64,000 nucleotides of DNA from Gammaproteobacteria bacterium (GTDB lineage Bacteria > Pseudomonadota > Gammaproteobacteria > JAJDYQ01), in the NCBI GenBank assembly GCA_965214035.1, contig OZ243932.1, forward strand, positions 1,857,260-1,921,259, in the 5' to 3' direction. Position 1 is the stretch's first letter. Every line of letters begins with the position of its first letter. The position numbers and the translations under genes were made by a program. Below, in pieces: positions 12,244-51,563 of this stretch. The notes beneath the pieces were generated by a model. The model did no database searches. It worked only from the letters and a program-made list of their open reading frames with translations, and was not told the DNA's origin.

Positions 12244-12260
12244 CCATTGCAGGTAGTGTA

Positions 12261-32776: not shown

Positions 32777-33736
32777 TCACAGCTTGATTAACCAGTCGCA
32801 TAATGAAACAACTTGCTCTTCATTTGTTAAGTTTGCTCCATTTGAAAGAGTGCCATCATTTAATTGCTGATATATCTCTTTCGCCATAGCATTTTCAATC
32901 GCCGCACCAACAAAAAATGTTTCAGGCTTACAGCCTTCCACAGAAAATGCTGCTCTAATCCTATGCAGTGCCGAGTTTGCGGTTTTCCAGTGCTCGTCTG
33001 CTCCCGCAGGATCAATTTCACCCTTTAGTTCTCCCAAAGCAAGATATTTCTCTGGATTATAGTATGCTGAATCCTTATTTCCACCGAAAATAATTTCATC
33101 AGGCGAGCAGTCAAACAGACAAAGATCCACATTCTTTTCAACCGTTGTTACAGTTAAATTGTAAATCAGAGTGTGTTTCTTTTTATTAGTGACCCAGTGC
33201 AGGCCTTTAACCTGCTTCTCAATTTCAGGCTCAGAGCTGGAGGACACCCATTTCCTTTTATTTGAATCAAGGTATTCAAAACTTGTTCCGCTTATGGAAC
33301 AGGTGGACACGAAAATTCTTGCAAATCTCCATTCACCTAATGATCCAGCCAGATTTCTCATGCTGCCGCCCAATGAATCACCTCTGGTAAGCAAGAAACG
33401 ATAAACCAGCTCATCAATAAATGACTGACCAGAAGGTTCCAGAAAATTTTCGATTAAACCCTTTATTGCCTCTTGTTTATCCTCTTCTCGCAAATGGTTT
33501 TTCGCCTTGTCAGAAATCCCTGATGCTGTAAGTAATGAATTTTTGATTTCACGTACTTTTAACAAATCTTTTGGCATTTTTGCTTGTGACGCATAAATCT
33601 TGAGTGCCTTGGCTTCTTCAATAAACGGAGTTGCTTTCCTGTTCTTTTCTAATGCTAACGAAATAAACCCTGCCCGTGTTTCCTCATAAGGAGTTATCAG
33701 GCTTTTATATGATTTTAAGTGGCTGTTAAATGGCAT
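32777..33736 (-). CDS. putative type II restriction endonuclease (partner of adjacent methyltransferase)
   Basis: 319 aa; 4-bp spacing from the MTase gene, same strand; no recognisable family motif. Confidence 0.5.
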   Translation of the reverse strand: MPFNSHLKSYKSLITPYEETRAGFISLALEKNRKATPFIEEAKALKIYASQAKMPKDLLKVREIKNSLLTASGISDKAKNHLREEDKQEAIKGLIENFLEPSGQSFIDELVYRFLLTRGDSLGGSMRNLAGSLGEWRFARIFVSTCSISGTSFEYLDSNKRKWVSSSSEPEIEKQVKGLHWVTNKKKHTLIYNLTVTTVEKNVDLCLFDCSPDEIIFGGNKDSAYYNPEKYLALGELKGEIDPAGADEHWKTANSALHRIRAAFSVEGCKPETFFVGAAIENAMAKEIYQQLNDGTLSNGANLTNEEQVVSLCDWLIKL

Positions 33737-33739
33737 TTA

Positions 33740-35071
33740 TTACCCCTTTTTCCATACATACACACACTTCCTTAAAGAGGCCCGCCCATGCCTGCCCATT
33801 TGTTGAGAACTATTGCCTTTACCTTGAGGCAGGACAAGGATATTGACTACTTGAAAATCGATTGTTTCAGCTATTTTTGAAAGCATTGTATCCACAGATA
33901 TTGCTGCACCAGCATATCGAACATTGTCATTGACCATAAACATTAAGCCGCCACTGTTTAAAACTCGATAGCATTCCTGGATGATATAACCCATTTCATA
34001 GAAATAACCTCTGACCATACGAGCGATTCCACTATTATTAAGTTCTTTTTGGCCCTTCTTATAGTCTAAATAATTCAATATCTTCTGCAATAAAGGCAAA
34101 TTGTCACAAATGTCTATGGCTGTCTGCCAATTATGGTTAAAACAGATAAGCTCCTTTGATTTATTTTCTACCGTGCAACTTAACATTGCCTGTCGCAAGC
34201 CAAACAACTCATTTTCATTGATTCCCAGTATGGCATGTTCAAGCGCATAGGTGCGTGTATAGTCGTAACGATTACAGTAAGGAGGAGAGGTCATTATTCC
34301 TGAATAAGCACAATCTTTTAAGGTCGGCAGAATATCCAAACATGAACCTTTTGATAAATTAATTTCTCCGGCTCTTATATTCCTCCGCAAATCTGAGAAC
34401 AGATCCTCTTTGCCACTACCATGATCCATATCATTTTTTATTTCATTCAGCTTTTTTAGAATAGCCTCATCGAATGAAGAAATCCGTCTTTTATCAAAAG
34501 CGTTTTTACTATTCTTGCGCTCGGCTCTGTAATCCCATCGAAGATACTGCCCGTCTTTTCTTGTATAGCCAATGGACTCAAGCACACATAACAGAGCAAA
34601 TAGTAATATATCCTTTATTTTGAGGAGTTCATGTTCCAGTTCGTTTAGATATCGGCCTATTTTTTCATGTGTCTCTGAAGAATATGCTCCATCAGTGATG
34701 CGAAGTACTTCAAAATTTTTAATTTCGCCTTTAGTACTCCAGGGTTTCTGAAGCAGCCATTTTTCTAATCCATCAATAATATTTTGTTTATTCGCACCTC
34801 TGGCAAGGATATTTGCACTGATGATTTTTTGCCCAACGGGTAAGACCTCAATTCCCTCGGAGTCATAGCCCAATGAGGAAGATGCGAATAAGGCCGTACC
34901 TGCACCGGCGAAAGGATCAAGTATCTTACCGTGAATGACATGATATCTACAAAAAAGATATTCCACCAAATCTGCGGAAAAAGCCTCTTTATATTTATAC
35001 CACCTATAGTATGTGCGGGCTTTATTGGCCTGAAAACTAACCAGCTTTCTGGTCAGAGCATCATCAACCAC
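33740..35071 (-). CDS. DNA methyltransferase (N6-adenine or N4-cytosine, alpha-type motif order)
   Basis: 443 aa; motif I DPFAGAGT about 200 aa before motif IV SPPY. Confidence 0.8.
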   Translation of the reverse strand: MVDDALTRKLVSFQANKARTYYRWYKYKEAFSADLVEYLFCRYHVIHGKILDPFAGAGTALFASSSLGYDSEGIEVLPVGQKIISANILARGANKQNIIDGLEKWLLQKPWSTKGEIKNFEVLRITDGAYSSETHEKIGRYLNELEHELLKIKDILLFALLCVLESIGYTRKDGQYLRWDYRAERKNSKNAFDKRRISSFDEAILKKLNEIKNDMDHGSGKEDLFSDLRRNIRAGEINLSKGSCLDILPTLKDCAYSGIMTSPPYCNRYDYTRTYALEHAILGINENELFGLRQAMLSCTVENKSKELICFNHNWQTAIDICDNLPLLQKILNYLDYKKGQKELNNSGIARMVRGYFYEMGYIIQECYRVLNSGGLMFMVNDNVRYAGAAISVDTMLSKIAETIDFQVVNILVLPQGKGNSSQQMGRHGRASLRKCVYVWKKG

Positions 35072-36126: not shown

Positions 36127-36182
36127 TAAACCCAGCGGCGGTGTAACCATCTTCTAGAGCTCCGGGTTATGTGCCAGGATTA
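36127..36182. other. short attC site (R boxes CTCTAAC / GTTATGT on + strand)
   Basis: Cassette-strand R'' ACATAAC exactly complements GTTATGT reconstituted with first 6 nt of its cassette; shares CGCCGCTGGG with attC at 37303-37401. Confidence 0.5.
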
Positions 36183-36783
36183 GCCTCGATCCAGGTGTAC
36201 CTGCGGCCATCCCTCAGTTCCTTCCATCGTATGACGTACTTGCCTTCAATCACTACCTCCTGATCCTTCGCTCCAGTTGGTTTTACGATCTTTCCATGCA
36301 ACGGTTCGCCACCTCGAAAGTACTTATAGATTCCGTTAGCACTTCCGGAATGGAAAGGACGCTGTTCAACGACCGCAAGGAAGAGGCAGCTTGAGAAGCC
36401 CGCCACCTTGAGCTCTTCCAAGAACGCGATGTCTTTGCAAAAACTGAACATCTGCTCCGAGCACTGACCTGCTCTCGGATACTTGAGCTCAACCGCCAAC
36501 CGTAGCTGATTCCGAGGCGTGTCAAAGCACGTAACATCAATCTCTCTTTTCACAAACGACGGGTGTGAAAACCGAAAATAGGACACATTCCTTTCGAACT
36601 GAACCAGCTTTGCCACATTTTTTCTCGAAGAAATATTCCGAATTCGTGCTGAAGACTGAATTCGTTGTAGATTTCGATATGGCCATCGTTCAGTCGCTGG
36701 GCGAACTCCCCGATCAGTGCTTCAGGCTTTACGGAGGCCGTCATCATGGTTGGGCGAGGCAGTGGTAGCACATAACGCTTCAT
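36167..36783 (-). pseudogene. hypothetical protein, frameshifted (integron cassette)
   Basis: Two adjacent minus-strand ORFs (36550..36783 and 36167..36616) overlap in different frames. Confidence 0.45.
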
Positions 36784-36834
36784 TCAGGTGCGCCGCAGGG
36801 TTCCGCAGGCATCACCTGGAATGACTTGTTATGC
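36770..36834. other. integron attC site
   Basis: ACATAAC-GC-TTCATTCAGGTG...CACCTGGAATGAC-TT-GTTATGC; imperfect palindrome with one extrahelical base, unpaired spacers, R''/R' boxes. Confidence 0.8.
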
Positions 36835-37281
36835 GTCTGGGACTTTTTGGGTGTAATGATCGAATGCTGTAATTTTTGTATAGCCTTCTGCCTCGTAGAG
36901 ACTTTTGGCTTTTAAGTTGTCAACTGCTGTTGCCAACTTAACTGTTGTGGCTTTTGTAGATTTTGCGTAGCTTTGAACATGCTGAAGTAATGATTTTGCT
37001 ATGCCCTGCTTTCTTGAATTTTCAGTTACGTACAGATCGTTGAGCAACCAAATACTTCTCATTGCCACTGAAGAAAATGAAGGATAAAGCTGTACGAACC
37101 CTAATGTTTCATTTGCTTCTGATTGAGCAAGAAAAATAACTGAGTCATTTTTAGTCAGTCTCTGCTCAATAAATTTGTGAGCTTTTTCTAAGTCAGACTC
37201 TTGCCCATTAAACTGACGATATAAATCGAAGAGATATGAAACGCTATTTATTTCTTCTTTTGTCGCTTCGATGATTTTCAT
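36829..37281 (-). CDS. GNAT family N-acetyltransferase (integron cassette)
   Basis: 150 aa; acetyl-CoA binding motif RKQGIAKSLL; flanked by attC sites. Confidence 0.85.
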   Translation of the reverse strand: MKIIEATKEEINSVSYLFDLYRQFNGQESDLEKAHKFIEQRLTKNDSVIFLAQSEANETLGFVQLYPSFSSVAMRSIWLLNDLYVTENSRKQGIAKSLLQHVQSYAKSTKATTVKLATAVDNLKAKSLYEAEGYTKITAFDHYTQKVPDA

Positions 37282-37302: not shown

Positions 37303-37401
37303 GCATAACGCGGTGCTAAGCGGCGCCCAGCGGCGAAGCCGCGGTTTGGGCGTCCGGCGGAGGGCCGTAGGCCCGGAGCAAACTTGAGCACCTTGTTATG
37401 T
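37303..37401. other. integron attC site
   Basis: GCATAAC-GC-GGTGCT-AAGC...GCTTGAGCACC-TT-GTTATGT; GC-rich imperfect central palindrome; extrahelical base on minus-strand 5' arm. Confidence 0.85.
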
Positions 37402-37408
37402 GACGTAT

Positions 37409-38672
37409 TCAATCGATTGGCACCACGAGAATACCAAGCGTACCACAAAACAAACCCAAGATGTAGAGTGCCAACCACCAGCGAGAATTGAATTTCTCCC
37501 AAGAGTTCTTCCCTTTCCATGATTGAATCTCCCATCCTGCGCGACCGATCACTCCCCAAGCTACCATAAGAATAACTTTTCTTGATAGTACGAACTCTAG
37601 AATATTATTGTCTGGAGCCTTCATGAAAAATTTTGAAGTTGAGGATGATAGTTCATTTAGCTTAAGCGGCTTATCACTGTTGCTATTTAGAAGTATAGAC
37701 TTTCTTAAATCTAATCGAGTACTTATTAAACTACTGTGAGTTGCGATAATTATTTGATTTTGATGGGACTCTGATATTTTTGAAATAAGCCTTTTCATGT
37801 TGCTGTGGCTCAGATGATTTTCAGGTTCCTCTAAAAGGAGGGTATCTAACGTATTATTTTCAGCGTTACGATTCAGAGCGAATTCAGTTTTTATGAAGCA
37901 CTGCTGCCCTTGTCCTTTAGCATCTATCGGAATATCACCTTGAGTCAGAGTGATGTCAGCTTCCAGATTGTATTTTGACCCTGAGCGTATGGCCAGCTCG
38001 TAACTGCCTAATCCAGCATTAATATCTTTGAGTTTATTCTCTTTGAATTGTATTTTTTGTAACCGATATTCGTTGCTCAGGCTTACTCTATTTGCATGAT
38101 CTACAATGGAATCATAGACTGTTCTTATGTATTCGTTGTTTGCATGCTCGCTATTAATTTTTGAGCTATCTATTGTTAGACACCTAAGGAATCGGCGATA
38201 ACCGGAATATGTCTCACCATTAAAAGTAATGAATTTAACAATATAAAATTCAAATGGAAAATTTCCGTTATCTAATGCTAAGACCTGATTAATTTCATTG
38301 ATTAGCTCTTCATTAGGAATGACAAATCATATGCAGCCCGCTAGCATTGATATTTTTCGAATTGTGTTTTCCGTAAATATCGGGATTTGTTTCATCACTC
38401 AAATAAGCTTCGACATGAACTTCAGGTAAGTTCTCAAAAGTCTTTTCACCCGCTGAAAATTCAGTTATCGATCCCTTATTAAGAATGGACTCAATACCTG
38501 TAGTCTCAACTTTATGCCTGCTTCCGCTGGAAAGCAGTTCGATTGCTTGTAATATTGAGCTTTTGCCGGCTTCATTATCTCCAATGATAGTATTAATCTT
38601 CGAATCAAATTCGACTTCAAATTCTTTGAATCTTTTATAGTTAATGAGCTTTAGTTGTTTTATGTGTTGCAT
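37409..38672 (-). pseudogene. AAA/ABC-type ATPase (AAA_21 / OLD-like ATPase domain), frameshifted
   Basis: Walker A GDNEAGKSS (38672..38313), then one open frame to 37409 carrying Walker B LLLEEPENHL and H-loop QIIIATHS; single frameshift near 38313-38330. Confidence 0.7.
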
Positions 38673-38730
38673 GCTTTCCTTTTCCAGTTCTGTGGAAATG
38701 CTAGTAGATTAAGTTGAGCGTATAACGTCG

Positions 38731-38815
38731 GAATAACCTGCAGCTCACAGCGCATTTTGGAGATGTGAAAATACCAACACATTGGAAAAGTGCGCTGTGA
38801 GCTGTCAGGTTAATT
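38731..38815. other. integron attC site
   Basis: GAATAAC-CTGCAGCTCACAGCGCA...TGCGCTGTGAGCTGTCAGG-TTAATT; 18-bp stem with one extrahelical A. Confidence 0.8.
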
Positions 38816-38839
38816 CCCTGGTTAGGCAGCGCCCCTACG

Positions 38840-39651
38840 CTATAGATGCAATCTTCCATCAAACACAATCACTGCTTCTCCACGAATCATTAACTGGTCC
38901 CCAGCCAACTCTAAGCTCATTGAGCCTGTGCGTTTCGACGATTGGAAGGACTCTAGTTTGGTCCTCCCTAGACGGATAGACCAGTACTTAGCAAGGAAGG
39001 TGTGAGTGCCCCCAGTTACAGGGTCTTCTTCAGTGCCACTCCAAGGCCAGAAATATCGGGAATGGAAATCGAATCCGTCTGCGCTAGAGCGCGCAGTAAC
39101 TAATACGCCATTGATCGAATCATGGGACGCTAGGAGCGCCGCGAAATCAGGGCTGAGGCTCGCGAGTAGTTTCGTGTCGTCGATTTCAAGGAGAAGGATG
39201 CGTGTCTCTTCATTGTAAACCGCATTGCTGACACTATCGATTCCCAACGCTGCGAGTAATGGCCCTGGCACGTCGCATGGGTGCGTATCGTAAACAGGAA
39301 ACTCCATTTCAATCTTATTCGCGCGTTTAGTCGCGACCAGACGGAGCCCTTGAGTATTAACGAATGTTGTTTCCTCTACTCCGAATTCAGTAAACACGAT
39401 TTTCGCGCGATGCCAAGGTGGCATGGCCGCATAGCGGAATTTCCATTTTCGGAGAGAAGTACCGAATTGAGTACTCGCCCGTGCCGTTCAGTTCTGTAAT
39501 GAAGGCGGTTTCCGAAAGCATTTTGCTGCGTACCGTGTATCTCAGAAGTCCCAGAAGTTGATTTACGATGTCTAGGAAACCACCAGGCAAAAAATGCCAC
39601 TACTACTCCAAGAGCTGCAATTATCAATCCCGCAACTTCGATACTCATCAC
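38840..39651 (-). pseudogene. PhzF-family (phenazine biosynthesis-like) protein, frameshifted (first cassette)
   Basis: PhzF motifs split over three frames (LSETAFITE...LCGHATLAS in 39590..39387; PVTGGTHTFLAKYW in 39424..38840). Confidence 0.7.
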
Positions 39652-39820: not shown

Positions 39821-40190
39821 ATGAAATCTCCCTTTTTGAACCTGACTCAAGAGCGCTTACGGCGATTGAACTACTCTCTCAGAACCGAAGAAAACTATTT
39901 AAGCTGGATTAAGCGCTATATCCTGTTTCATGGCAAACGCCATCCCACTGAGCTGGGCAAGACAAAAATGGAAGTATTTTTAACGAATCTGGCCGTTCAG
40001 AGAAAAGTGTCTGCTTCAATGCAAAGTCGGCATTGATATTTATGTATAAGCAAGTGCTGGATATGAAATCACCTTGGGTTGATGGCATGGTGCGAACCAA
40101 ACAGAAAAATAAAACCCGGTGATGTTCTCCCACCATGCTCAGATAGTGCGAGTTGTCCAATTTGATTATCTTGTAGGGCGCACCAGATAC
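39821..40190 (+). pseudogene. intI: integron integrase IntI, N-terminal fragment with frameshifts
   Basis: RLRRLNYSLRTEENYLSWIKRYILFHGKRHP...VFLTNLAVQRKVSAS aligns with IntI1 residues about 20-80; continuation (ALIFMYKQVLDMKSPW; PVMFSHHAQIVR) in other frames. Confidence 0.75.
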
Positions 40191-40561
40191 CAACTGACTA
40201 AAACCAGACCGCCAAAACCCGTATATAACACCATGAAAACCCATTCTGGAGCGTTGTAGTAAAGTAAGCTTTGCAACCAATGCTGTATAAACGAACCTGA
40301 ATATGTTTCTAACTGAGCTTCTTCCCTCAGGGCCATTTCCCAAATGGTTAAAGGACAAATGGCCCCAACCCATGATTGGATAACCACTATGGTAATAGCG
40401 ACCAGATGAGTTATTCGAAAAGCCCGATTTCTTATCCAGCACCATTTGAGGGCATATCCAAGATAAATTGCAACAAGCCCGAACACTACAAAAAAAACAA
40501 ATAGTACATGTATAATTAAAATGGCATCAGCCAGAAATATTAACAGCAATTCTTTCGGCAT
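40166..40561 (-). CDS. DUF2784-like small membrane protein
   Basis: 131 aa, 4 TM helices; 3' end overlaps intI N-fragment convergently. Confidence 0.5.
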   Translation of the reverse strand: MPKELLLIFLADAILIIHVLFVFFVVFGLVAIYLGYALKWCWIRNRAFRITHLVAITIVVIQSWVGAICPLTIWEMALREEAQLETYSGSFIQHWLQSLLYYNAPEWVFMVLYTGFGGLVLVSWYLVRPTR

Positions 40562-40753
40562 ACTTTTTTCACTTGGCGCCAGTAATAATCAGATCTAAAT
40601 CGGAGGTGATTTTCACGCAATCATACCGCAGGCATGCACACAATGGTGCGCTGAATTTGGAGTTTGCGTTGATCACATTGTGCAGAAGATACAATTGCAA
40701 TATCGTTTGGCTTAACGGTCGTTACCTACTCCTTACTTGATAGTTACCTGAGA

Positions 40754-40846
40754 ACATAACGATTGCGGCAACCGGCGCAGCCCACTGTCTGTCCCGCATA
40801 GCGTCAACCCTCGTTTCCCGGCGTCAGGCTCATTGCGTTGTTAGGG
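40754..40846. other. attC-like repeat (R boxes ACATAAC / GTTAGGG) downstream of GmrSD operon
   Basis: Same box pattern and partial homology (CTAACAA.GC, AGTGGGC) to repeats at 32693 and 35582; no strong internal palindrome. Confidence 0.4.
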
Positions 40847-41284
40847 CGCACGGCCCGAGTGCAGTATTTTCCATTGGAGATAACTTTTCAGTTGTGACGC
40901 CAACTTCTCGGGAAAACACTCCAGAATCTCAATCCACGACAACTGCTTGATGATGACATTAGTCTCAAGTTGCCAGTCCTCATCCCCGAAGACATTGGCC
41001 GAGCGACCAGCACCCAGTACGATAAAGTTGTTCACCCTCGGCATGGCCCGTCGCGCTTGAGTCTCACAATACCTTACTCGAAGATCTAGCTGGCTACGAT
41101 TTCCGGCGACACCCTGACCTGTGTTTAGCTTCGAGTTCCACTTCGCCTCGCCGAGAAGAAGCGTGGTGTCTGAACGAAGCGCGAAGTCGATCTCTGGCCC
41201 GCCACTTGACTCAGGCTTCTCAGGGTGAGGAAGTCTGCGCCAAAGCCAACAAACTGGGGCATCGGTAACTGTTGCTACGCCCAC
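40841..41284 (-). CDS. PD-(D/E)xK nuclease core (C-terminal half of split HsdR-N-like nuclease)
   Basis: 147 aa; IDFALRSD...LLGEAKW matches D-(x)n-E-x-K; in frame with upstream ORF, separated by a single TAA. Confidence 0.5.
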   Translation of the reverse strand: MGVATVTDAPVCWLWRRLPHPEKPESSGGPEIDFALRSDTTLLLGEAKWNSKLNTGQGVAGNRSQLDLRVRYCETQARRAMPRVNNFIVLGAGRSANVFGDEDWQLETNVIIKQLSWIEILECFPEKLASQLKSYLQWKILHSGRAP

Positions 41285-41806
41285 TTATTCGAGGATGCGA
41301 TTAAAGACGCTTAGCCGTGTGCTGGCGGGCGCATAGGCAAGACTCCCAAATACGCTCCATGTCACAGCGTCCTCGCTGTTCAGAGACTGTAGGTCCGTGT
41401 AGTGGCCCAATCCCGACGTTGCGGCCTCGGAGTCTTTCCCGGTACAACCCTCGAATTTGCTGCTCGCGTAGTATTTCTGGAGAAGCTCTGGCGTAGGCCA
41501 AGGAGAACATGTTCTGACCATGCTGTCGTCCGGGTGTGTAGTGACCAGCACACCGCCTCTGCTTTCAGCTAGAGAGATAGTCCTATCTTCGAGCCAAGGG
41601 TTGATGACATTGAGCCGCTCGCGCAGCACCGGCAGCATCACGACCTCGGTGAGGCTCTCCCGATGGGTGTCAGCCGGGGTCTGCTTCATACCCATCAGGT
41701 CGATGATCTCCCAACCCAAGCTCGCAAGCTGGTCGAGCAGCGGCTTCTCGACGTGGTTGCGCTCGTCAAGCTTAATCTGCTTCGGCGTTTTGCCTGGGGA
41801 GATCAT
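41285..41806 (-). CDS. HsdR-N-terminal-like domain protein (N-terminal half of split nuclease)
   Basis: 173 aa; EKPLLDQLASLGWEII...ESLTEVVMLPVLRERLNVINPWL resembles type I HsdR N-terminal helix. Confidence 0.5.
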   Translation of the reverse strand: MISPGKTPKQIKLDERNHVEKPLLDQLASLGWEIIDLMGMKQTPADTHRESLTEVVMLPVLRERLNVINPWLEDRTISLAESRGGVLVTTHPDDSMVRTCSPWPTPELLQKYYASSKFEGCTGKDSEAATSGLGHYTDLQSLNSEDAVTWSVFGSLAYAPASTRLSVFNRILE

Positions 41807-43920
41807 TCTGAAGCTTCTCCATTGGGCTTTTCGCCGTCGACTGTTCCAATAAACAGTAGTTTCTCCCGTGCCTTGTCATCGGCGAAATGAATGTTCCAAC
41901 GCTTCTCCATGAATTTCAGCAACTGAATGCCTCGCTCGCGAATTTCATCGGGGCCCCAATCCTTGTAATTAGAGACTTCGATTTCAGAGTGCGAACCATC
42001 TGCATAGCCGTTGCGGATCTTGCTGCCATCGCGATTGTACTTGGGCTTTTTCTTTTCAGCGAAGGCGTTGTTCTGTAGCGAAGAGTTGATCGCGGAAGAG
42101 AGGAGCAAAAGGTTCCCGAGGCTATTGCGGTACGCCTCCCGCTCTCGTTCGCGAATACCTTTGAAAGCTGGCTTCCAAGCCGCCGTCTCGGACTGCGGGC
42201 AAATGTGCTCGATGGATATCTTGTCCTTCGGCGACTTGAGCAAATCTGCCCAGTCAACCTTCTTGTCGCGACTCTTGGACAGCAACCCCAACTCGTACTC
42301 GTAGAGGAAATACCGCAAGCCGGGCCAGTCGTAGTAGCCCTGACCGTTCTCGAATTTCTTCTGAAGCAACAGATAGAAGTCATCATTCGCAAAATGGCCC
42401 TCATCCGTGAAAGTAAAGCTCATCCGGTCACGCAGTCGCTCCTTCAGTTCCGCCAAATCCATGTCGCCACGGTCGATCGCGCGTACCGCGTTGCTGAACT
42501 CCGAGCTGCGATAATTCGAACGGGTTTGGGTCAGCCGGAACACGACGAAGATAAACCGTTCGATCTCCTTGAATGTACCGATACGCTGAACGCGATCATT
42601 GCATTTCTTCAGAATCGCCATCAGCAACGGGCGAAAGTACGCCATGCCCAGCCGATTCAGACGTTGAATCCATTCAATTTCTTCCCGGGTCAAATCGCCG
42701 GACATTTCGGGGTAAAACGTGCAGAACCAGTGAACCGAAGACGCCTTGAGGCTCTTGACGTAGTCGCGAATCTCTTTCGGCCGCAACTCAGCGGCCATCA
42801 TCGGGTCGCTGCTTTCCACCTCGTCCAGTCCGTTCTCGTCGTCCGCTTCCAGGTCCGCGTCAGATGTCTGCTCCTCGGCTTCCTCCAGTTCAACCAGTTG
42901 AACGATCTTGCGATGAACGCGCTGCGGTGTGAACTGCTCCTCCAGCAGAAACTTGATGTAATCTCGCCCCGTCTGCCGAGAGTACTTGAAATACATCATC
43001 CAGTGGCCCCGCAGAAAGTCGTCGTCGTTCAGCGGCTTCGACTTGTTACGCCCCAACTGGAAGTAAACCTCCTTCCAAGCTTTGTTGATTAAGTCACGGA
43101 GATCGCTGCGCTCCGCGGGGTCCAGTTCCGCATCGGTATAGAGGGTCGTCAGGTAGATCAAACGATTCTTGAGCAATTCCAGATCTGAAAGCGTCTTGCC
43201 GCGGTTGTTCATCGTCTCGAAGGCGACGAAAACGTCGAACTCATCCTTGATGATGTACTCGTTAAACAGGAACCGTTTGGTCAGCATGCGGTACATACCT
43301 TGAAGCCCTGAGAGTCCTTCTTTTTCGTGCCAAGCTCGTAGTTGCTCTTTGAAGTAGTGTTTCCCATTGCTGAGATTGAGCGTATAGAACGTCTCGAACA
43401 CCGTGCCACCGCCCTCTTCGCCCAGAATTCGGTACCGCATGTACTGGTCACTGGGGTTGTCAACCGTGTAGCCGAACTTGTACGTCCGAAAGGCTTCCCC
43501 GGCCGGTTTCACCTCGAACAGAAACTTTCTTTCGACGGCCGCGATGCTGAGCGTATCGGTCAGGCAGATCGCGTCATCCACCTGACCCTTGTTTTCAGGC
43601 AAGCTGCGAAGCAACTCGATGAAGGCTTGCAGAAACAGCGTGAACGTCGTCAGCCGCTGCTGACCGTCGACGATGTGGTACACCTTGTACGAATGGTCAT
43701 CAACCAGCCAAAATTCCTTGTCATCCTGCTGAATGTCGGCGGATGGAATCTCCTTCAGAGTCAGCACACCGGTATAGTGGGAGCGACCGTCGGGCAGGTT
43801 GATGAGATCCTCCCAGAAGGCGTCCAGCTGCTCGCGTCCCCAGGCGTAACCACGCTGGTAGTCGGGAATTCGGAACAGCCTCTCCTTGAAGAGGCTATCG
43901 AGTGGTTTGGGTTCGTCCAT
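41803..43920 (-). CDS. GmrSD-like DUF262 (ParB/Srx-like NTPase) + DUF1524 (His-Me finger nuclease) protein
   Basis: 705 aa; DGQQR motif (IVDGQQRLTTF) N-terminal; HIEHICPQS...N HNH-like motif C-terminal; GC-rich by eye. Confidence 0.8.
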   Translation of the reverse strand: MDEPKPLDSLFKERLFRIPDYQRGYAWGREQLDAFWEDLINLPDGRSHYTGVLTLKEIPSADIQQDDKEFWLVDDHSYKVYHIVDGQQRLTTFTLFLQAFIELLRSLPENKGQVDDAICLTDTLSIAAVERKFLFEVKPAGEAFRTYKFGYTVDNPSDQYMRYRILGEEGGGTVFETFYTLNLSNGKHYFKEQLRAWHEKEGLSGLQGMYRMLTKRFLFNEYIIKDEFDVFVAFETMNNRGKTLSDLELLKNRLIYLTTLYTDAELDPAERSDLRDLINKAWKEVYFQLGRNKSKPLNDDDFLRGHWMMYFKYSRQTGRDYIKFLLEEQFTPQRVHRKIVQLVELEEAEEQTSDADLEADDENGLDEVESSDPMMAAELRPKEIRDYVKSLKASSVHWFCTFYPEMSGDLTREEIEWIQRLNRLGMAYFRPLLMAILKKCNDRVQRIGTFKEIERFIFVVFRLTQTRSNYRSSEFSNAVRAIDRGDMDLAELKERLRDRMSFTFTDEGHFANDDFYLLLQKKFENGQGYYDWPGLRYFLYEYELGLLSKSRDKKVDWADLLKSPKDKISIEHICPQSETAAWKPAFKGIREREREAYRNSLGNLLLLSSAINSSLQNNAFAEKKKPKYNRDGSKIRNGYADGSHSEIEVSNYKDWGPDEIRERGIQLLKFMEKRWNIHFADDKAREKLLFIGTVDGEKPNGEASE

Positions 43921-43986
43921 CGCGATACTCGTTGATTAATTATGGGAATTATATGGGAATTATATACTTGACTCCCTAGTGTCTCG

Positions 43987-44649
43987 TCATATTTCTTGTG
44001 TTGGATATAGTCGTTTTAGTTTGATGCGCGCGTCTTCAGTTGTGAACTGCCAATCCACCTGAGTCTGCAGGCGGTCCCGTGAGGCTTGCCAGGCAGCGAC
44101 CTCACGTGCGAGTATGTCCATACGGTCGATACGCCGATTCAGGCATTGGCGGTTCATGACATTGAGTTCGATTTCAGCCACATTCAGCCAACTACCGTGC
44201 TTTGGGGTGTACACGAACTCGAATCGGTCCCATAGTGCTTTGGCTTGTGCCGGTGGGTAGGCTTCATAGAATGCACCGGGGCGGTGGGTATTGAGATTGT
44301 CCATGACCAAGGTGATGCGGGTGGCATCCCGATAGCGTGCGGCGATGTCGGAGAGGAACTGCGCCCAATCGGTTCGGGTTCTACGTTCGGTTACTTGGGT
44401 CATCCGCTTGCCAGCCAAAGGTTCGGTGGCCATGAAGACATTACAGGTTCCACAACGCTGGTATTCGTAGTCGTATCGGGCTGGCTGTCCTGGACTCATG
44501 GCAACCGGCGTACGAGTCTCCCGAATCAGTTGGCGCGGTGTCTCGTCCATGCATACTACCGGGAAAGCGGCATCGTAGGGACGCCGGTAAACATCCAGCA
44601 CCTTTTCCATCGCGGCGACGAACTCGGCGTTGCCTTGTGGCGGAATCAC
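43987..44649 (-). CDS. IS630-family transposase, DDE catalytic part (orfB)
   Basis: 220 aa; DDE motifs (VVCMDE, VMDNLNTH, SWLNVAE). Confidence 0.85.
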   Translation of the reverse strand: MIPPQGNAEFVAAMEKVLDVYRRPYDAAFPVVCMDETPRQLIRETRTPVAMSPGQPARYDYEYQRCGTCNVFMATEPLAGKRMTQVTERRTRTDWAQFLSDIAARYRDATRITLVMDNLNTHRPGAFYEAYPPAQAKALWDRFEFVYTPKHGSWLNVAEIELNVMNRQCLNRRIDRMDILAREVAAWQASRDRLQTQVDWQFTTEDARIKLKRLYPTQEI

Positions 44650-45122
44650 CCATCCGACCCGCGGCCATGGTTTGAGTTCGTTTTTTTTAGAACCCGTCGC
44701 ACGGTTTCATGGGACACCGAATCAATGTAACCCAGTTCCACAACCCGGTCGGCCAAGAGCCGCAACGACCATTGCGCGTAACCCGCCGGAGCTTCATCAC
44801 AGGCCAAAGCCACCAGACGCGCCTCGAATTCGCCGTCGGCCTTACGAATATAGGTGAGCCTGCGCCCTTGGCGGCCTCCTAGCGCCGCATCCAGACCTTC
44901 CTCCACAAACCGCTTCTTCACTCGATCCACCTTGCGCATGCTGATGCGTAGTATGTCCGAGATGGCTTCCCCAGTGGAATGCCGATCATTGAAAACACCT
45001 TCATCGCAGTTGAGCAGGATCAACGCATTAATCACCTTTTGGGACCGATGCGAACCCTTGTTCGTGATACCTGTCAATTCATCTCGCTCCGCTTCGTCCA
45101 ACGTCACCCTATAGCGTTTCAT
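44646..45122 (-). CDS. IS630-family transposase, N-terminal HTH part (orfA), joined to orfB by frameshift
   Basis: 158 aa; HTH domains; A8 slippery run (coding strand) at 44684-44691 at the orfA/orfB overlap. Confidence 0.8.
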   Translation of the reverse strand: MKRYRVTLDEAERDELTGITNKGSHRSQKVINALILLNCDEGVFNDRHSTGEAISDILRISMRKVDRVKKRFVEEGLDAALGGRQGRRLTYIRKADGEFEARLVALACDEAPAGYAQWSLRLLADRVVELGYIDSVSHETVRRVLKKTNSNHGRGSDG

Positions 45123-45206
45123 ACATTCAACCTCGTCTTAAACAGAAAACAAGGAATCTATCATATTATATGCGACATATCATGTATGACGAGACACTAG
45201 TCTCCA

Positions 45207-46068
45207 TTAATTAAAGCACGAAGATTGGTTGCCAAGTGGTTTAAATCGAAGATGTAAATGCTTGCGGCCAGCATGATGCCAGACACCGTACAGCCCTCGG
45301 CGCAACAGTGCCCAGACGCTTTCGATGCTGTTCGTATGGATATCGTTCGCACCGACATACTCCCCGGCACTGTGCTTGACGTGTCCATGCTCGTATCCGG
45401 CCAGTCCTTGATAGGCGGTCGCTTCCTCCGTGTAGACCGATGATCCCTTCTTGACGTGTTGCTTGATGGTGCCCTGTAGCGTCTCCTTCTTGGTATCCCC
45501 TACTGGCATCGCCACGGTGCGTCCAGTCGCCCGTTCTCGCAACCCTACGACCGCTTGCTTACCGACCGCTCCCCGACCTTCATGTAACTTTTTCCATTCG
45601 TGTTTGTTCTTTTCCTTACCGCCGATATAAACCTCATCGACTTCGACTTCACCGGACAGCATCCCGCCATCACTGCCATCACCACAGGCCTCACGGATAC
45701 GCACCTGCATAAACCAAGCGGTCTTTTGTGTCACTCCAATCTGCTTTGATAATTGCAGACTGGATATCCCCTTGCGTTCCGTGACCGTCATGTAGATCGC
45801 GTAAATCCACTTGTGTAGGGGAACGGATGACCGCTCAAAGATCGTTCCGGTACGCACCGTAAATTCCTCGTTGCAGTCTTTGCATCGGTAGTACCCCAAC
45901 CGCTTTCCCTACCTGGCGTAGATGTTGCCAAAGCAACCGCAATGAGCACAAACGGGCGTACCTTTCCAGCGCTGTTGCTCAATGTAGCATCTGGCTGATT
46001 CAGCATTGGGAAACTGCTCAAACAGTTCGACCAGGGAAATTGTGATATTATCTTTCATTGTGCTTTCC
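45207..46068 (-). pseudogene. IS1595-family transposase with in-frame TAG
   Basis: N-terminal zinc ribbon MKDNITIS...CAHCGCFGNIYAR then in-frame TAG (about 45900) then GKRLGYYRCKDCNEEF...DDE region to 45207. Confidence 0.7.
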
Positions 46069-46129
46069 TATTGACATGACCCATTTTATAACGCAACAGC
46101 TAGGGAGTCAAGTATATAATTCCCAAAAG

Positions 46130-46520
46130 TTATTGGTTATGCGCAAAGCAGAGTTTGAAGAGGATTTGGCCGCCGGGTTAGTGGGGTTTTTATGCCCGAT
46201 GCTTTGATGCGCAAATATCCAGATGCACAACGTGAGTGGATTTGGCAATATGTTTTTTCCTCGCCAAAATTATCACAAGACCCAAGAACAGGAATAGTCA
46301 GGCGCCATCATATTTATGAGCAATCTATTGGACGAGCGATTAAACAGACAGCACGTGATGGACAAATAGCAAAAAGAGTGAGTGCTCACACCTTCAGGCA
46401 TTCGTTTGCCACGCATCTGCTTGAGGCAGGCTATGACATTCGTACCATTCAAGATTTATTGGGGCATAAACATGTAGAAACCACAATGATTTATACCCAT
46501 GTGCTCAAATCGGGGGGACA
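46130..46520 (+). pseudogene. intI: integron integrase IntI, C-terminal fragment (5'-truncated at IS1595 end)
   Basis: [25 protein letters not shown]...[16 protein letters not shown]...[45 protein letters not shown] matches IntI C-terminus including IntI-specific insert and catalytic Y; frameshift near 46180; no stop. Confidence 0.8.
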
Positions 46521-46596
46521 GGGGGGCAGTCGCCTTTGGATGTATTGTAATACTATCCTGACAAGCGAGGCTTTATTAAAATCCTGTCACTATCTT

Positions 46597-47307
46597 TCAG
46601 CGCACCACAACCACCGAGTCAGAAAGCAACGGCTGTATGATTTCAAGTACATCTTCTTTGGTGACCTCAGTGCGGAAAGTTTTGATGATCCTCTGATTCC
46701 GGTCAATGACAACGGTGTAGGGCAGGGTTGTCAGTTGGTTGCCATACTCCTGCATGATGGTCAGCCCTTCCAGTTCAGCAAGCAGGATCGGGTATTCCAC
46801 GCCGATTTCGTCAACAAAATCCTGTACGGGTTCGGCCTGATCAATGGCTACTCCGATAATCTCAAACGGCTCGCCTTCGAGTTGTTCGCGCAGCTCAATA
46901 AAATCCGGCATTTCCTTGCGGCACGGAGGGCACCAGATTGCCCAGAAGTTGAGCAGGATAATGTTGCCGTCCCATTCGCTCAGGCTGCGTCTGTCGCCTT
47001 CAAGACTGTTTAAGCTGAAATCGGGTCTGATTTCAGGTATGCCAACCTGCCGCTCTGTCTGTATCGGGGTGCTTTTATCGCCTTGCAGCCATTGTGCAGC
47101 CAGCACTCCCGCGACCATGGATATCAGGGCAACAGTACCATAGAGCAGTGCCGTCTTGTATGACGCTTTCATGAAGATAGTGACCCGCCACAACCGCGTC
47201 AGAGCTTCATCCAAAAGCATCGGTGTGTACTGTTTTATAGTTGAGGTGGCACTGTGACAGCATGTATCATTATGTACCTGTGCCCAAAATCCCCAAGACA
47301 GCCTCAA
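46597..47307 (-). CDS. TlpA/ResA-like thiol:disulfide oxidoreductase, membrane anchored
   Basis: 236 aa; N-terminal [13 protein letters not shown] thioredoxin motif. Confidence 0.75.
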
Positions 47308-49392: not shown

Positions 49393-50693
49393 GTTCATAA
49401 TTTTGTGTCATTGACTTAAACTGATATGAACTGATTTGATTAAGGAGATGATAGATGAAAACCCACATTGGCTTTGATATGGAAGCGGCTATCAAGGATT
49501 TGCGCGAAGGCAAAGACCTCGGTGGCAAGGATGGCATTTTTACCCCGCTCATCAAGCAATTAACCGAGGCCGCCATGCAGGCCGAGCTGGAAGAACACCT
49601 GGCAGCCGAGGCGGCTCCGAACCGTAAAAACGGCAGCAGCACAAAAACCATGAAAACCCCGACCGGGGAGTTTGAGCTGAAAACCCCGCGTGACCGAGCC
49701 AGCACCTTTGAACCCCGGATGGTCAAAAAGCACCAAACCCACCTGACTGATGAACTCCAGCGCAAGGTGATGGGCCTGTTTGCACTGGGCAACAGCTATC
49801 AGGATATCCGCACTCACATTGCCGATATGTACGACATCTCGCTGTCCAACGGGACGATCAGCACGGTCACCGACAAGCTGTTACCCGAGTTACAGGCTTG
49901 GCGTGAGCGCGACCTCGAAGCCGTCTATCCGATTGTCTGGCTGGATGCTATCCATTACAAAATCAAGGAAAATGGCCGTTATCTGAACAAGGCAGTTTAC
50001 ACCATTTTGGGACTGAACATGGAGGGCAAGAAAGAACTCCTGGGTCTGTATCTGTCCGACTCCGAAGGTGCCCACCATTGGCTGAGCGTGCTGACCGACC
50101 TGCATAACCGAGGGGTCAAGGACATCCTGATCGTCTGTGTGGATGGACTCAAGGGCTTCCCTGAGGCCATTCACAGCATTTATCCTGACACCGAGATACA
50201 ACATTGCGTCATCCATCAAATCCGCCATTCCATGAAGTATGTGGCCTCGAAAAATCAATCCGCGTTTATGGCAGACCTCAAATGTGTTTACAAGGCCGCA
50301 ACCCTCAATGCCGCCGAGATCGCCCTGGATGAGTTGGAGGACAAATGGGGAGACAAGTATCCCCTGGTCATCCAGTCCTGGCACCGCAAGTGGCCCACGC
50401 TATCGGCCTACTTCAAGTACCCCGATTATGTGCGCACCGCGATTTACACCACCAATGCGGTAGAAGCCGTCCATCGACAGTTCCGCAAACTGACCAAAAC
50501 CAAAGGGGGCTTTGCCAATGAAAGCAGCTTGCTCAAGTTGCTCTATGCCGGCATACTCAAGGCCTCGGAGCGCTGGACACATCCGGTACAAAATTGGAAC
50601 TTGACGCTCTCGCAATTAACCCTTCACTTTGAGGGGCGACTCGACGATTACATTGCTTTGTAAATGTAAATGGCTGACACAGAATTTTGAACA
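49393..50693. mobile_element. IS256-family insertion sequence
   Basis: Terminal IRs GTTCATAATTTTGTGTCA (49393-49410) and rc-match TGACACAGAATTTTGAAC (50676-50693); 1.3 kb; single transposase. Confidence 0.8.
49455..50663 (+). CDS. IS256-family transposase
   Basis: 402 aa; MULE/IS256 DDE conservation (VWLDAIHYK, CVDGLKGF, IQHCVIHQIRHS). Confidence 0.9.
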   Translation: MKTHIGFDMEAAIKDLREGKDLGGKDGIFTPLIKQLTEAAMQAELEEHLAAEAAPNRKNGSSTKTMKTPTGEFELKTPRDRASTFEPRMVKKHQTHLTDELQRKVMGLFALGNSYQDIRTHIADMYDISLSNGTISTVTDKLLPELQAWRERDLEAVYPIVWLDAIHYKIKENGRYLNKAVYTILGLNMEGKKELLGLYLSDSEGAHHWLSVLTDLHNRGVKDILIVCVDGLKGFPEAIHSIYPDTEIQHCVIHQIRHSMKYVASKNQSAFMADLKCVYKAATLNAAEIALDELEDKWGDKYPLVIQSWHRKWPTLSAYFKYPDYVRTAIYTTNAVEAVHRQFRKLTKTKGGFANESSLLKLLYAGILKASERWTHPVQNWNLTLSQLTLHFEGRLDDYIAL

Positions 50694-51563
50694 CCCTCGG
50701 AATTTCATGTCGTGCGACATTCTGCGGCATTCCAATAAACTGTATATCAAACTTCAATGAAGGCTCAACCATTGACCGAGCACTGTGAAGCCGGAAAGAT
50801 AATTGCCAGCCACCCTCAAAAGTAACCAGTAGCGTGCTATTTGAGCTTGGCTTTCGCCGTATTTGTTCAATCCGGCTCGGCATCTTCCATCTCTTGCCCC
50901 ATTTCAGGGTTCCATTGATGTTCACGCTTGTAATGCTGGCACGGTCCGGAAAGCAGACAACCTTGTAATAGTCTTTTGTCCCAACCAAGTACTGGAAGAA
51001 TGGACTGATGAATTGCTTTGCGTAGTCCTCGCATAATCGCCGTAGCTCATCCTCAAAGGCGGCCAGTATGGGCAGGCAGCAGTACCTACCTTGTCTGGTA
51101 TATCGCGAAAATACTGCCCTTGCCTGCCCCTTAAATCCTCGAATACAGGCCTTACTTTCTGCCAGTAGACACTGCTGCATGGATGGTTTCCCCAGTCCTT
51201 GCCAAAGTCGATGCTATCCGATAGCTGTGAGTGCTTTACCCCTTGATGGTTGTGTTTGGCTGAAATGCCTATAGAACCATCTGGCTCCAGGTAAATAACA
51301 ATATCCCGAACATCTCCGGATTTCCCTTGAAAGTCATCCTGCAAGGCAATACGCGATATATGACTAAACTGATCATCGTGGCACAACAAAAAGATTGAGA
51401 CTTCATCTGCTGCCTTGTCAAAGCTTTTCCTTTCTGGCAAATCTTCGTAGTGAATCTTTGTTTGGAAATACGCTTTGTTTTGAACAATGTCGGCGTTCGT
51501 ATGCCTGCTTATCTCTCTGGCAAGCGCGTGCTCAAACGCCTTGCCGTTCCGAACCTGTTTCAA
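50694..51563 (-). pseudogene. putative restriction endonuclease (PD-(D/E)xK), frameshifted and 3'-truncated by IS256
   Basis: Two overlapping frames (51563..50922 and 51180..50557), second reads through into IS256 end; DVRDIVIYLEPDG...SAKHNH PD-ExK-like motif. Confidence 0.5.

What the first reader, a model, noticed from the sequence alone, without database searches (positions are those of the whole stretch)
37409..38672. OLD/AAA_21-like ATPase cassette disabled by one frameshift
Walker A (GDNEAGKSS) is in ORF 38672..38313. A second frame, open for 900 nt without a start codon, carries Walker B (LLLEEPENHL) and the H-loop (QIIIATHS). One indel near 38313-38330 would restore a protein of about 480 aa. 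ATPases of this type are typical of abortive-infection and defence modules (OLD, Gabija, Septu). It occupies a single cassette between two well-formed attC sites.
Basis: partly seen in the sequence, partly recalled or inferred. Interest (0 to 1): 0.55.

Follow-up and report, generated by a model that had tools for sequence, protein, structure and literature searches.

The report
Decayed Gabija nuclease gene remnant

Summary
The Walker A ORF is 38672..38313. A second frame is open 38326..37412 and carries Walker B and the H-loop. They are separated by a 1-nt insertion at 38320, and the unit lies between two attC sites.

Intact relatives (up to about 92% identical) are 521-aa OLD-family nucleases that match PADLOC GajA. 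In 66 of 69 genome loci a 345-aa GajB-like helicase gene follows directly. The pair travels as one 2,732-bp integron cassette.

In the window, homology stops at codon 368 (37568), just before the Toprim catalytic VEGDAE. The last 52 codons are the 3' half of an unrelated 109-aa membrane-protein cassette gene, which brings its own attC. No gajB exists anywhere in the window.

So a deletion of at least 1.6 kb fused two cassettes. Repairing the indel would give a 420-aa chimera with no nuclease, not a 480-aa OLD protein. The integron itself is decaying: intI is broken, and neighbouring PhzF-like and HaeIII-like genes are frameshifted.

One oddity is unexplained. The identical insertion also occurs in a metagenomic allele on a different sequence background.

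Verdict: pseudogene remnant of a known defence system, low interest.

The parts
38722..38825 (-). attC of the upstream (PhzF-like) cassette. Its GTTAT core at 38726-38722 marks the 5' boundary of the Gabija-derived cassette (crossover G38726|T38725).
   Evidence: It forms a hairpin with ATAAC/GTTAT-type ends (DNA fold -31.6 kcal/mol, z = -9.1). Homology with the same cassette in L001, L008, L009 and L077 starts exactly at this GTTAT, while the upstream flanks are unrelated.
38673..38725 (-). 53-nt leader of the cassette, with a purine-rich ribosome-binding region (GGAAAAGGAAAG) before the ATG.
   Evidence: It is conserved with L001 712-766 and with other copies of the cassette.
38322..38672 (-). 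gajA remnant, codons 1-117, original frame. Contains Walker A GDNEAGKSS at 38582-38556. As read, the frame runs on to a stop at 38315-38313.
   Evidence: tblastn against P0001 residues 1-117 gives 91% identity. Pfam AAA_15 and PADLOC GajA match.
38320..38320 (-). Single inserted A (T on the plus strand). This is the frameshift.
   Evidence: It is the only gap in a 1,160-nt alignment with L001. The extra base is absent from eight homologues in the local alignment, and none of the 69 genome loci has a frame break in gajA. It is not in a homopolymer run. The same insertion is present in metagenome contigs L077/L078.
37568..38321 (-). gajA remnant, codons 118-368, shifted frame. Contains the GQGQQ signature-like region (37918-37895), Walker B LLLEEPENHL (37840-37811) and H-loop QIIIATHS (37756-37733). 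It ends with ...RKVIL.
   Evidence: tblastn against P0001 gives 93% identity up to residue 368/369. The blastn alignment with L001 ends at AAAGTTATTCTT. The PADLOC GajA model is covered only over positions 2-381 of 532.
37567..37568 (-). Deletion junction: ...AAAGTTATTCTT | ATGGTAGCTTGG...
   Evidence: Homology to gajA ends at 37568. Homology to the small membrane-protein gene begins at 37567.
37409..37567 (-). 52 codons plus stop (MVAWGVIGRAGWEIQSWKGK...LGILVVPID*). This is the 3' half of an unrelated small membrane-protein cassette gene, fused in frame to the gajA fragment.
   Evidence: It is 71% identical to residues 55-105 of the 109-aa protein P0121 (E = 8.9e-17). At DNA level it is 72% identical to L005/L006/L007, starting exactly at the junction.
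37305..37399 (-). attC that belongs to the small membrane-protein cassette, not to the Gabija cassette.
   Evidence: It forms a hairpin (DNA fold -31.3 kcal/mol, z = -4.0). It aligns with the attC behind the P0121 gene in L005/L006 (shared GCCGGACGCC and GCCGCT blocks). It is unlike the conserved Gabija-cassette attC (L001 3378-3445).

Best explanation
The region is a non-functional remnant of gajA, the OLD-family ATPase-Toprim nuclease of a compact two-gene Gabija-type anti-phage system that circulates as a single 2.7-kb integron cassette.

Two lesions are shown.
1. A 1-nt insertion at 38320 breaks the frame after codon 117.
2. An internal deletion runs from gajA codon 368 into the middle of a downstream small membrane-protein cassette gene. 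It removed the whole Toprim nuclease domain, all of gajB, the Gabija cassette's own attC and the 5' half of the small gene. At least about 1.6 kb of Gabija cassette was lost, plus an unknown amount beyond. The result is one chimeric 'cassette' that ends in the other cassette's attC.

Inferred steps:
- The deletion was an illegitimate (slippage or microhomology type) event rather than an integrase reaction, because both breakpoints lie inside coding sequence.
- The decay is recent relative to the divergence of the alleles.
- The locus is tolerated because the integron is itself immobilised and decaying.

Nothing here can act as a Gabija system. In Gabija the Toprim domain is the DNA-nicking effector, and both genes are required.
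For: Identity of the gene:
- PADLOC GajA PDLC00102 scores E = 1.5e-75 but covers only profile positions 2-381 of 532.
- 2,657 homologues were found. Intact ones are about 521 aa and carry PF20469 OLD-like Toprim. The best is 92% identical over 88% of the query.
- P0001 matches the same PADLOC model end to end (E = 3.8e-117). Its overlapping 345-aa neighbour matches GajB PDLC00148 end to end (E = 4.9e-57).
- A gajB homologue starts at the gajA stop in 66 of 69 genome loci. Two of the other three stop at or within about 130 nt of a contig end; the third (L065) has about 1 kb downstream and was not examined. None is found in the window.

Truncation:
- tblastn and blastn homology stops at 37568.
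- PF20469 spans residues 363-426 of P0001. The invariant E370, G371, E374 and D424-N425-D426 all lie beyond the break.

Tail origin: P0121. In L005 that gene lies next to an intI fragment and has a related attC.

Cassette nature: a 2,732-bp unit has identical ends in L001 and in Shewanella, Halovibrio and Enterobacterales contigs.

The frameshift is a real mutation:
- It is not in a homopolymer.
- The same insertion is seen in two separately assembled metagenome contigs.
- Housekeeping genes in the window are intact (RpoD, PlsY and others), while other accessory genes are broken.

Relaxed constraint: lineage-specific changes are 8 nonsynonymous to 6 synonymous in the window and 5 to 5 in L077, against 51 to 127 pooled for five intact alleles (Fisher p = 0.018).
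Against: - Pairwise dN/dS between the remnant and intact alleles is still low (0.07-0.12).
- Read-level support for the insertion and the junction in this assembly could not be checked.
- The junction lies at AAAGTTATTCTT, which contains a GTTAT core-like motif. Some involvement of the integrase at a secondary site cannot be excluded.
- The fusion is in frame, which has a one-in-three chance expectation.
- This compact subfamily has not, to my knowledge, been tested for phage defence. 'Gabija' rests on PADLOC models, gene pairing and domain content. By sequence the B. cereus GajA structures were not reached; the nearest solved relatives are TsOLD 6P74 and the class 2 Toprim fragments 6NJV/6NK8.
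Confidence: 0.9

Rival explanations
1. One reading: a complete OLD/AAA_21-like defence ATPase gene, inactivated only by one indel, which a single repair would restore.
For: Walker A, Walker B and H-loop are present, and a single 1-nt insertion separates the two frames. Repair gives an uninterrupted 420-codon ORF.
Against: - The repaired ORF lacks the last 153 residues of the family, including the whole Toprim nuclease domain.
- Its last 52 residues come from an unrelated membrane-protein gene.
- gajB is missing.
Confidence: 0.04
2. The frameshift is a sequencing or assembly error. The locus then encodes a real 420-aa fusion protein, a GajA ATPase and dimerisation module with a C-terminal transmembrane tail, which might have a new role such as a membrane-anchored sensor or a decoy.
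For: The fusion is in frame, and the tail ends in a hydrophobic helix-like stretch (WWLALYILGLFCGTLGILVV). dN/dS of the ATPase part is low.
Against: - The extra base is not in a homopolymer.
- The identical insertion exists in independent Illumina-type metagenome assemblies.
- The window's core genes show no such breaks.
- No other copy of this chimera was found in the metagenome scan, and the exact downstream ORF product is not in the protein collection.
- Lineage-specific changes lean nonsynonymous.
Confidence: 0.04
3. The +1 shift is programmed or tolerated (recoding, or a reversible OFF switch), because the same insertion recurs on two allelic backgrounds.
For: The identical A insertion occurs in the window and in L077/L078. 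L077 matches the intact L001 allele at flanking polymorphic sites -20, -17, -16, +4, +13 and +14, where the window differs. The insertion turns TC-TT CCY AATGA into the perfect inverted repeat TCATT CCY AATGA (my reading).
Against: - None of the 69 genome loci has a frame break in gajA, and the extra base is absent from the eight homologues aligned at the site.
- The zero-frame stop context differs between the two alleles: TCC TAA in the window, TCC CAA TGA in L077.
- There is no start codon for 176 codons after the shift.
- Both frameshifted alleles show a raised nonsynonymous share.
- In the window the gene is truncated as well.
Confidence: 0.02
4. It is an ordinary ABC-transporter ATP-binding subunit.
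For: There are weak matches of the Walker B / signature region to ABC-F and transporter models (E = 1.9e-5 to 1e-2).
Against: - All those scores are far below the curated cut-offs (for example 23.6 against 725 bits).
- GajA models score E = 1e-75.
- Intact relatives carry a Toprim domain and a helicase partner, not permeases.
Confidence: 0.003

Closest known systems
Gabija (GajA, a Class 2 OLD nuclease, plus GajB, a UvrD-like SF1 helicase). Bacillus cereus VD045 is the studied example (PMC10568477, PMC10781630, PMC8136825).
   Same: The remnant's ATPase part and its intact relatives match PADLOC GajA models, and the relatives' partner matches GajB models over full length. The relatives have the same gene order, with gajB overlapping the gajA stop, and the same ABC ATPase plus Toprim architecture.
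   Different: - The window copy has no Toprim domain and no gajB, and it is frameshifted.
- The intact subfamily is smaller (521 + 345 aa) than the B. cereus pair (about 578 + 494 aa, from my own knowledge).
- It is too distant for HMMER to reach the B. cereus GajA/GajB chains in the PDB.
- I found no experimental defence data for this subfamily.
OLD-family nucleases with solved structures: Thermus scotoductus OLD (6P74, Class 1) and the Class 2 Toprim regions of Xanthomonas and Burkholderia (6NJV, 6NK8) (PMC7049728, PMC6755086).
   Same: These are among the nearest solved relatives of the intact family by profile search: 6P74 E = 2.6e-10, 6NJV 1.3e-5, 6NK8 1.2e-4. The top hit overall, 9n69 (E = 8.6e-11), matches only the P-loop region. 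They share the ATPase-Toprim layout.
   Different: The window fragment keeps only the ATPase part. The intact family has Class-1-like length but the Class-2 hallmark of a downstream helicase.
Phage-defence integron cassettes ('BRiCs'; streamlined defence systems in sedentary chromosomal integrons) (bioRxiv 10.1101/2024.07.02.601719 and 10.1101/2024.07.02.601686).
   Same: The intact relative is a one-cassette, two-gene, smaller-than-usual version of a known system, bounded by attC and found in unrelated hosts with identical ends. Those papers describe exactly this pattern.
   Different: The main text of the Darracq preprint does not mention Gabija. The window copy is a decayed cassette in an integron whose integrase gene is broken.
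ATPase-only defence proteins of the same fold (Septu PtuA, PARIS AriA, AbiEii-type AAA_21).
   Same: They share the N-terminal P-loop and Walker B regions. Secondary PADLOC and PDB hits are AriA 1.1e-22 and PtuA about 1e-14.
   Different: These hits are far weaker than those to GajA. The ATPase-only state here results from a deletion and is not the native architecture.

Membership tests
OLD-family nuclease | N-terminal ABC-type ATPase with Walker A, Walker B and H-loop | tested here: met
   GDNEAGKSS, LLLEEPENHL and QIIIATHS are present. Pfam AAA_15 scores 82.5 bits (cut-off 32.1) and AAA_21 scores 46.1 bits (cut-off 27) on the frame-corrected sequence.
OLD-family nuclease | C-terminal Toprim nuclease domain (catalytic Glu, DxD) | tested here: not met
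   There is no PF20469 hit in the window protein. Homology ends at residue 368. In P0001 PF20469 spans residues 363-426, and the invariant E370, G371, E374 and D424-N425-D426 lie beyond the break. tblastn finds no Toprim remnant elsewhere in the window.
Gabija system (Class 2 OLD + helicase) | GajA-type protein | tested here: inconclusive
   PADLOC GajA PDLC00102 scores E = 1.5e-75, but only profile positions 2-381 of 532 are covered. Intact relatives cover the full model.
Gabija system (Class 2 OLD + helicase) | [quoted passage not shown] | tested here: not met
   tblastn with the L001 GajB finds no hit in the 64-kb window better than E = 1. It is present at the gajA stop in 66 of 69 related genome loci.
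Gabija system (Class 2 OLD + helicase) | Protection against phage infection | not testable with these tools
   This needs plaque assays with the intact cassette (for example the L001 or L008 version) and with the window allele.
Integron gene cassette | attC recombination site at the 3' end, with inverse and direct core sites and an imperfect hairpin | tested here: met
   37399-37305 runs ATAAC...GTTAT and folds with z = -4.0. This attC is inherited from the small-gene cassette.
Integron gene cassette | 5' boundary at the G|TT of the preceding attC, with the same unit found in different contexts | tested here: met
   Homology to L001, L008, L009 and L077 begins exactly at GTTAT 38726, with unrelated upstream flanks.
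Integron gene cassette | Array adjacent to a functional integron integrase gene and attI | tested here: inconclusive
   An intI N-terminal fragment lies at 39821-40036, divergent from the array, and a C-terminal fragment at 46183-46524 (PF00589). They are separated by about 6 kb that includes IS630- and IS1595-type transposase genes.
ABC transporter ATP-binding subunit | Best match to transporter nucleotide-binding-domain families, with permease partners | tested here: not met
   NCBIfam transporter and ABC-F hits are at E = 1.9e-5 to 1e-2 and far below cut-off. Relatives are paired with a helicase.
Programmed +1 frameshift gene | Shift conserved across homologues, with a conserved slippery or stop context | tested here: not met
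   None of the 69 genome loci has a frame break in gajA. The two alleles that carry the shift have different zero-frame stop contexts.

The most novel reading that the evidence does not exclude
The identical +A at 38320, found on two different allelic backgrounds, is a sequence-templated recurrent mutation. On this reading it is a quasi-palindrome 'correction' that perfects TCATT-CCY-AATGA and acts as a repeat-free OFF (and possibly ON) switch for a costly Gabija cassette. That would be a form of phase variation of a defence system inside integrons.
Probability: 0.06. Interest if true: 0.5.

Novelty: new member of a known kind. Interest (0 to 1): 0.2.

Why it matters
It matters little on its own. 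It is one more decayed defence gene, and the family is already covered by defence-system HMM libraries.

Its value is as a worked example. An attC-to-attC unit is not necessarily one ancestral cassette: here a deletion fused two cassettes and borrowed the second one's attC. A 'single frameshift' call made from motifs alone can also miss a lost effector domain and a lost partner gene.

Two by-products may be useful to integron and defence researchers:
- A compact two-gene Gabija-type system moves as a precise 2.7-kb cassette between Shewanella, Halovibrio and other genera.
- This cassette is repeatedly found inactivated, once by the very same base insertion.

Tried and rejected
1. I first thought the break at AAAGTTATTCTT, which contains GTTAT, was a recurrent integrase secondary-site hotspot, because two database proteins (P0010, 371 aa; P0041, 379 aa) end at the same place.
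   - Rejected. The tail of P0010's contig is an Illumina adapter (AGATCGGAAGAGC).
   - P0041's gene breaks off after AAAG and is followed by foreign sequence, which I read by eye as a transposase end, about 140 nt before the contig end.
   - The window's right-hand breakpoint lies inside a coding sequence, not at an attC.
2. I looked for the Toprim or gajB remnant elsewhere in the window by tblastn and found nothing.
3. blastn found no second copy of the tail elsewhere in the window, and no homology between the tail plus its attC and the 3' end of the Gabija cassette in L001/L002.
4. Two metagenome DNA scans, one for the junction 23-mer and one for a degenerate tail pattern, found nothing. The second should have hit L005-type sequences, so that collection evidently lacks them.
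5. The source organism could not be named. Exact-sequence look-ups show only an unnamed 2,513,604-bp NCBI/ENA contig, and contig look-ups for window proteins returned nothing. The genome scan did not return the window's own locus.
6. My first attC regex (RYYYAAC...GTTRRRY) missed the real sites, which use ATAAC/GTTAT cores. A relaxed version found them but is too crude to use on other loci.
7. The apparent clustering of lesions in codons 105-118 (window, L077, L079) is not evidence of a hot region. Those alleles were found with a 119-aa query, which biases towards breaks there.
8. The quasi-palindrome idea is weak. The stems are only 5 bp, and the ancestral sequence already folds into another small hairpin.

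Full report
**1. Observation**

On the minus strand, ORF 38672..38313 encodes 119 aa with the P-loop GDNEAGKSS at 38582-38556. A second frame is open from 38326 to 37412 (stop at 37411-37409). It carries LLLEEPENHL (37840-37811) and QIIIATHS (37756-37733), and its first possible start codon is only at 37798. The two frames overlap by a few bases between stops, so the shift has to lie within 38326-38316. Only the predicted size is off: joining the frames gives 420 aa, not about 480 aa.

**2. What the gene is**

The frame-corrected protein matches Pfam AAA_15 and AAA_21 above their gathering scores. It matches the PADLOC GajA model PDLC00102 much more strongly (E = 1.5e-75), but only over profile positions 2-381 of 532. 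NCBIfam gives nothing above any cut-off, and transporter-type models are at noise level.

A search of 5.8 billion proteins returned 2,657 relatives.
- The close ones are up to 92% identical.
- They are almost all 521 aa and carry PF20469, the OLD-like Toprim domain.
- All align to only 88% of the query.

tblastn with the best relative, P0001, aligns residues 1-117 to 38672-38322 and residues 117-369 to 38323-37565 in another frame. It finds nothing for residues 370-521 anywhere in the 64 kb.

**3. The two lesions**

A 1,160-nt DNA alignment with the P0001 locus (L001) is 93% identical and has a single gap, an extra A at window 38320 (TGTC[A]TTCC). Eight homologues aligned at this site lack the base, and none of the 69 genome loci has a frame break in gajA.

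The alignment starts exactly at the GTTAT core of the upstream attC (38726). It ends at ...AAAGTTATTCTT (37568). In P0001 the next residues are VEGDAEY, the start of the Toprim domain:
- PF20469 spans residues 363-426.
- In a 34-sequence alignment, E370, G371, E374 and D424-N425-D426 are invariant.

All of these are missing from the window.

**4. Where the tail comes from**

The 52 codons after the break (37567-37412) were searched as a concatenation of three reading frames: the two open minus-strand frames and one plus-strand frame. The frame that continues gajA matched one protein, P0121. P0121 is 109 aa with no Pfam family. The match covers its residues 55-105 at 71% identity (E = 8.9e-17).

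In three metagenome contigs P0121 is its own integron cassette:
- In L005 it lies next to an intI fragment.
- It is followed by an attC that aligns with the window's attC 37399-37305.

DNA similarity to those contigs begins at the very first base after the junction.

So the present attC-to-attC unit is a chimera. It consists of the first 1.16 kb of a Gabija-type cassette joined in frame to the last roughly 0.26 kb of another cassette, including that cassette's attC. The deletion removed at least 1,574 nt of the Gabija cassette (L001 1871-3444), the 5' half of the small gene and anything that lay between. Both breakpoints are inside coding sequence. I therefore infer an illegitimate deletion rather than an integrase reaction. 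At 72% identity to the nearest small-gene relative, any microhomology cannot be read.

**5. The intact system**

In L001 and L002, P0001 is followed, with a 16-nt overlap, by a 345-aa gene. That gene matches PADLOC GajB PDLC00148 over its full length (E = 4.9e-57) and Pfam UvrD-helicase. P0001 itself covers the GajA model end to end (E = 3.8e-117).

A genome scan gave 69 loci from many phyla. In 66 of them a GajB homologue begins at the gajA stop. Two of the other three stop at or within about 130 nt of a contig end. The third, L065, has about 1 kb of downstream sequence and I did not examine it. The window has no GajB-like sequence.

Between L001 and contigs of Shewanella, Halovibrio and an Enterobacterales MAG, 90-92% DNA identity spans exactly L001 713-3444. 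That is from G|TTAT to the GCGTTA| of a conserved 68-nt attC, and the flanks are unrelated. The intact unit is thus a mobile 2,732-bp, two-gene cassette.

Profile searches of the PDB reach:
- the Class 1 TsOLD structure (6P74, E = 2.6e-10);
- the Class 2 Toprim fragments (6NJV and 6NK8);
- PcrA and Rep for the partner (about 1e-6).

They do not reach the B. cereus GajA/GajB chains. The family is therefore a distant, compact branch. Under the published definition, Class 2 OLD means an OLD nuclease with a downstream UvrD-like helicase and is synonymous with GajA (PMC10568477), so it qualifies as Gabija-type. That review also states that each component of such systems is needed for defence. Streamlined one- or two-gene versions of known systems in integron cassettes have been described (10.1101/2024.07.02.601686; 10.1101/2024.07.02.601719).

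**6. Is the frameshift real?**

I could not see reads. Three indirect arguments favour a real mutation.
- The extra base is not in a homopolymer.
- Core genes in the window are uninterrupted (RpoD with all sigma-70 regions, PlsY, a multicopper oxidase, an outer-membrane efflux protein), while several accessory genes are broken.
- The same insertion is present in contigs L077 (ENA) and L078 (JGI), which are separate assemblies, probably of one sample. There the shifted frame continues through a complete Toprim domain to the contig end.

**7. Selection**

Pairwise dN/dS between the remnant and intact alleles is 0.07-0.12, much like the 0.05-0.15 seen among intact alleles. Changes unique to one lineage tell a different story:
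- window: 8 nonsynonymous to 6 synonymous;
- L077: 5 to 5;
- five intact alleles pooled: 51 to 127 (Fisher p = 0.018; window alone against intact alleles p = 0.034).

This fits recent loss of constraint on alleles that were under purifying selection for most of their divergence. The numbers are small.

**8. The unexplained point**

L077 is 97% identical to the intact L001 allele and only 94% identical to the window. At the polymorphic sites nearest the insertion (-20, -17, -16, +4, +13, +14) it agrees with L001 and not with the window. The same base was therefore inserted twice independently, or it was moved by a conversion tract shorter than 20 nt.

The insertion perfects a small inverted repeat (TCATT-CCY-AATGA). 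That would suit a templated, quasi-palindrome type of mutation, but the stems are very short.

A programmed frameshift is unlikely, for four reasons:
- none of the 69 genome loci has the shift;
- the zero-frame stop contexts of the two alleles differ;
- no restart codon follows the shift;
- both alleles look relaxed.

A third inactivated allele, L079, has a 29-nt deletion a few codons upstream and keeps an intact Toprim domain and gajB. I found it with a 119-aa query, so its position carries no weight.

**9. Context**

The array lies on the minus strand below an intI N-terminal fragment (39821-40036, plus strand). That fragment runs into stops. The C-terminal part of intI reappears at 46183-46524. 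The 6 kb between them holds:
- a DUF2784 gene;
- a GmrSD-type restriction gene;
- IS630- and IS1595-type transposase genes.

The first cassette, which is PhzF-like, is split into two frames. A HaeIII-type endonuclease gene at 50557-51563 is also split. The gajA remnant is thus one of several decaying accessory genes around an immobilised integron.

**10. Verdict**

The finding is real but ordinary. The only point with some wider interest is the recurrence of the identical insertion.

Noticed in passing
window 39821-40036 (+) and 46183-46524 (+), with 40037-46180 between: The integron integrase gene is broken. An N-terminal 71-codon ORF is followed by stops. The C-terminal catalytic part (PF00589) lies 6 kb further on, inside ORF 46192-47013. 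The stretch between holds minus-strand genes: DUF2784 (40166-40561), GmrSD (41803-43920), IS630-type transposase in two ORFs (43987-45122) and IS1595-type transposase (45207-45899). It also holds attC-like hairpins at 40844-40756 and 46140-46088.
   Followed up: partly
window 38840-39590 (-): The first cassette next to attI encodes a PhzF-like protein that is also split into two frames. The N part is 39590-39387 (PF02567 positions 37-75) and the C part is 39424-38840 (positions 106-281).
   Followed up: partly
window 50557-51563 (-): A HaeIII-type restriction endonuclease gene is split into two overlapping ORFs (PF09556 positions 1-170 and 159-298), so it is another frameshifted defence gene. 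Core genes such as rpoD (20551-22401) are intact.
   Followed up: partly
window 32777-35071 (-), attC-like sites at 35651-35584 and about 32765-32695: A BsoBI-type restriction endonuclease (PF09194, E = 5e-143) and an adjacent DNA methylase lie between two similar attC-like sites. This may be a two-gene restriction-modification cassette in the same array. The aldo-keto reductase ORF at 31680-32354 matches only positions 81-289 of its 291-position Pfam model, so it may be truncated at the 5' end.
   Followed up: no
L001 713-3444; L008, L009 and L010 9947-12678; L028 about 9952-12679: A compact Gabija-type pair (521-aa GajA and 345-aa GajB) forms one 2,732-bp integron cassette with its own conserved 68-nt attC. 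It is found at 90-92% DNA identity, with identical ends, in Shewanella, Halovibrio and Enterobacterales contigs. The GajA has the length of Class 1 OLD proteins yet has the Class 2 helicase partner.
   Followed up: partly
L077 about 544 and L078 about 526 (equivalent to window 38320): The very same 1-nt insertion occurs in a metagenomic gajA allele that is otherwise full length. That allele sits on an L001-like sequence background, which implies independent recurrence or a very short conversion tract.
   Followed up: partly
L079 568/569: Another metagenomic copy of the cassette has a frameshifting 29-nt deletion in gajA codons about 106-115, with the Toprim domain and gajB intact. Inactivated copies of this cassette are therefore not rare.
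   Followed up: partly
L003 9096-9236; L004 1262-1283: Two 'short GajA' database proteins end at the same ...SxK(V) position as the window break. In L003 the gene stops after AAAG, followed by what looks by eye like the end of an IS30-type transposase gene, about 140 nt before the contig end. In L004 the tail is Illumina adapter sequence, an artefact in a public assembly.
   Followed up: partly
window 36167-36616 (-) and 36829-37281 (-): The downstream cassettes are a GNAT acetyltransferase (36829-37281, attC 36832-36772) and a 149-aa protein with no Pfam family (36167-36616).
   Followed up: no
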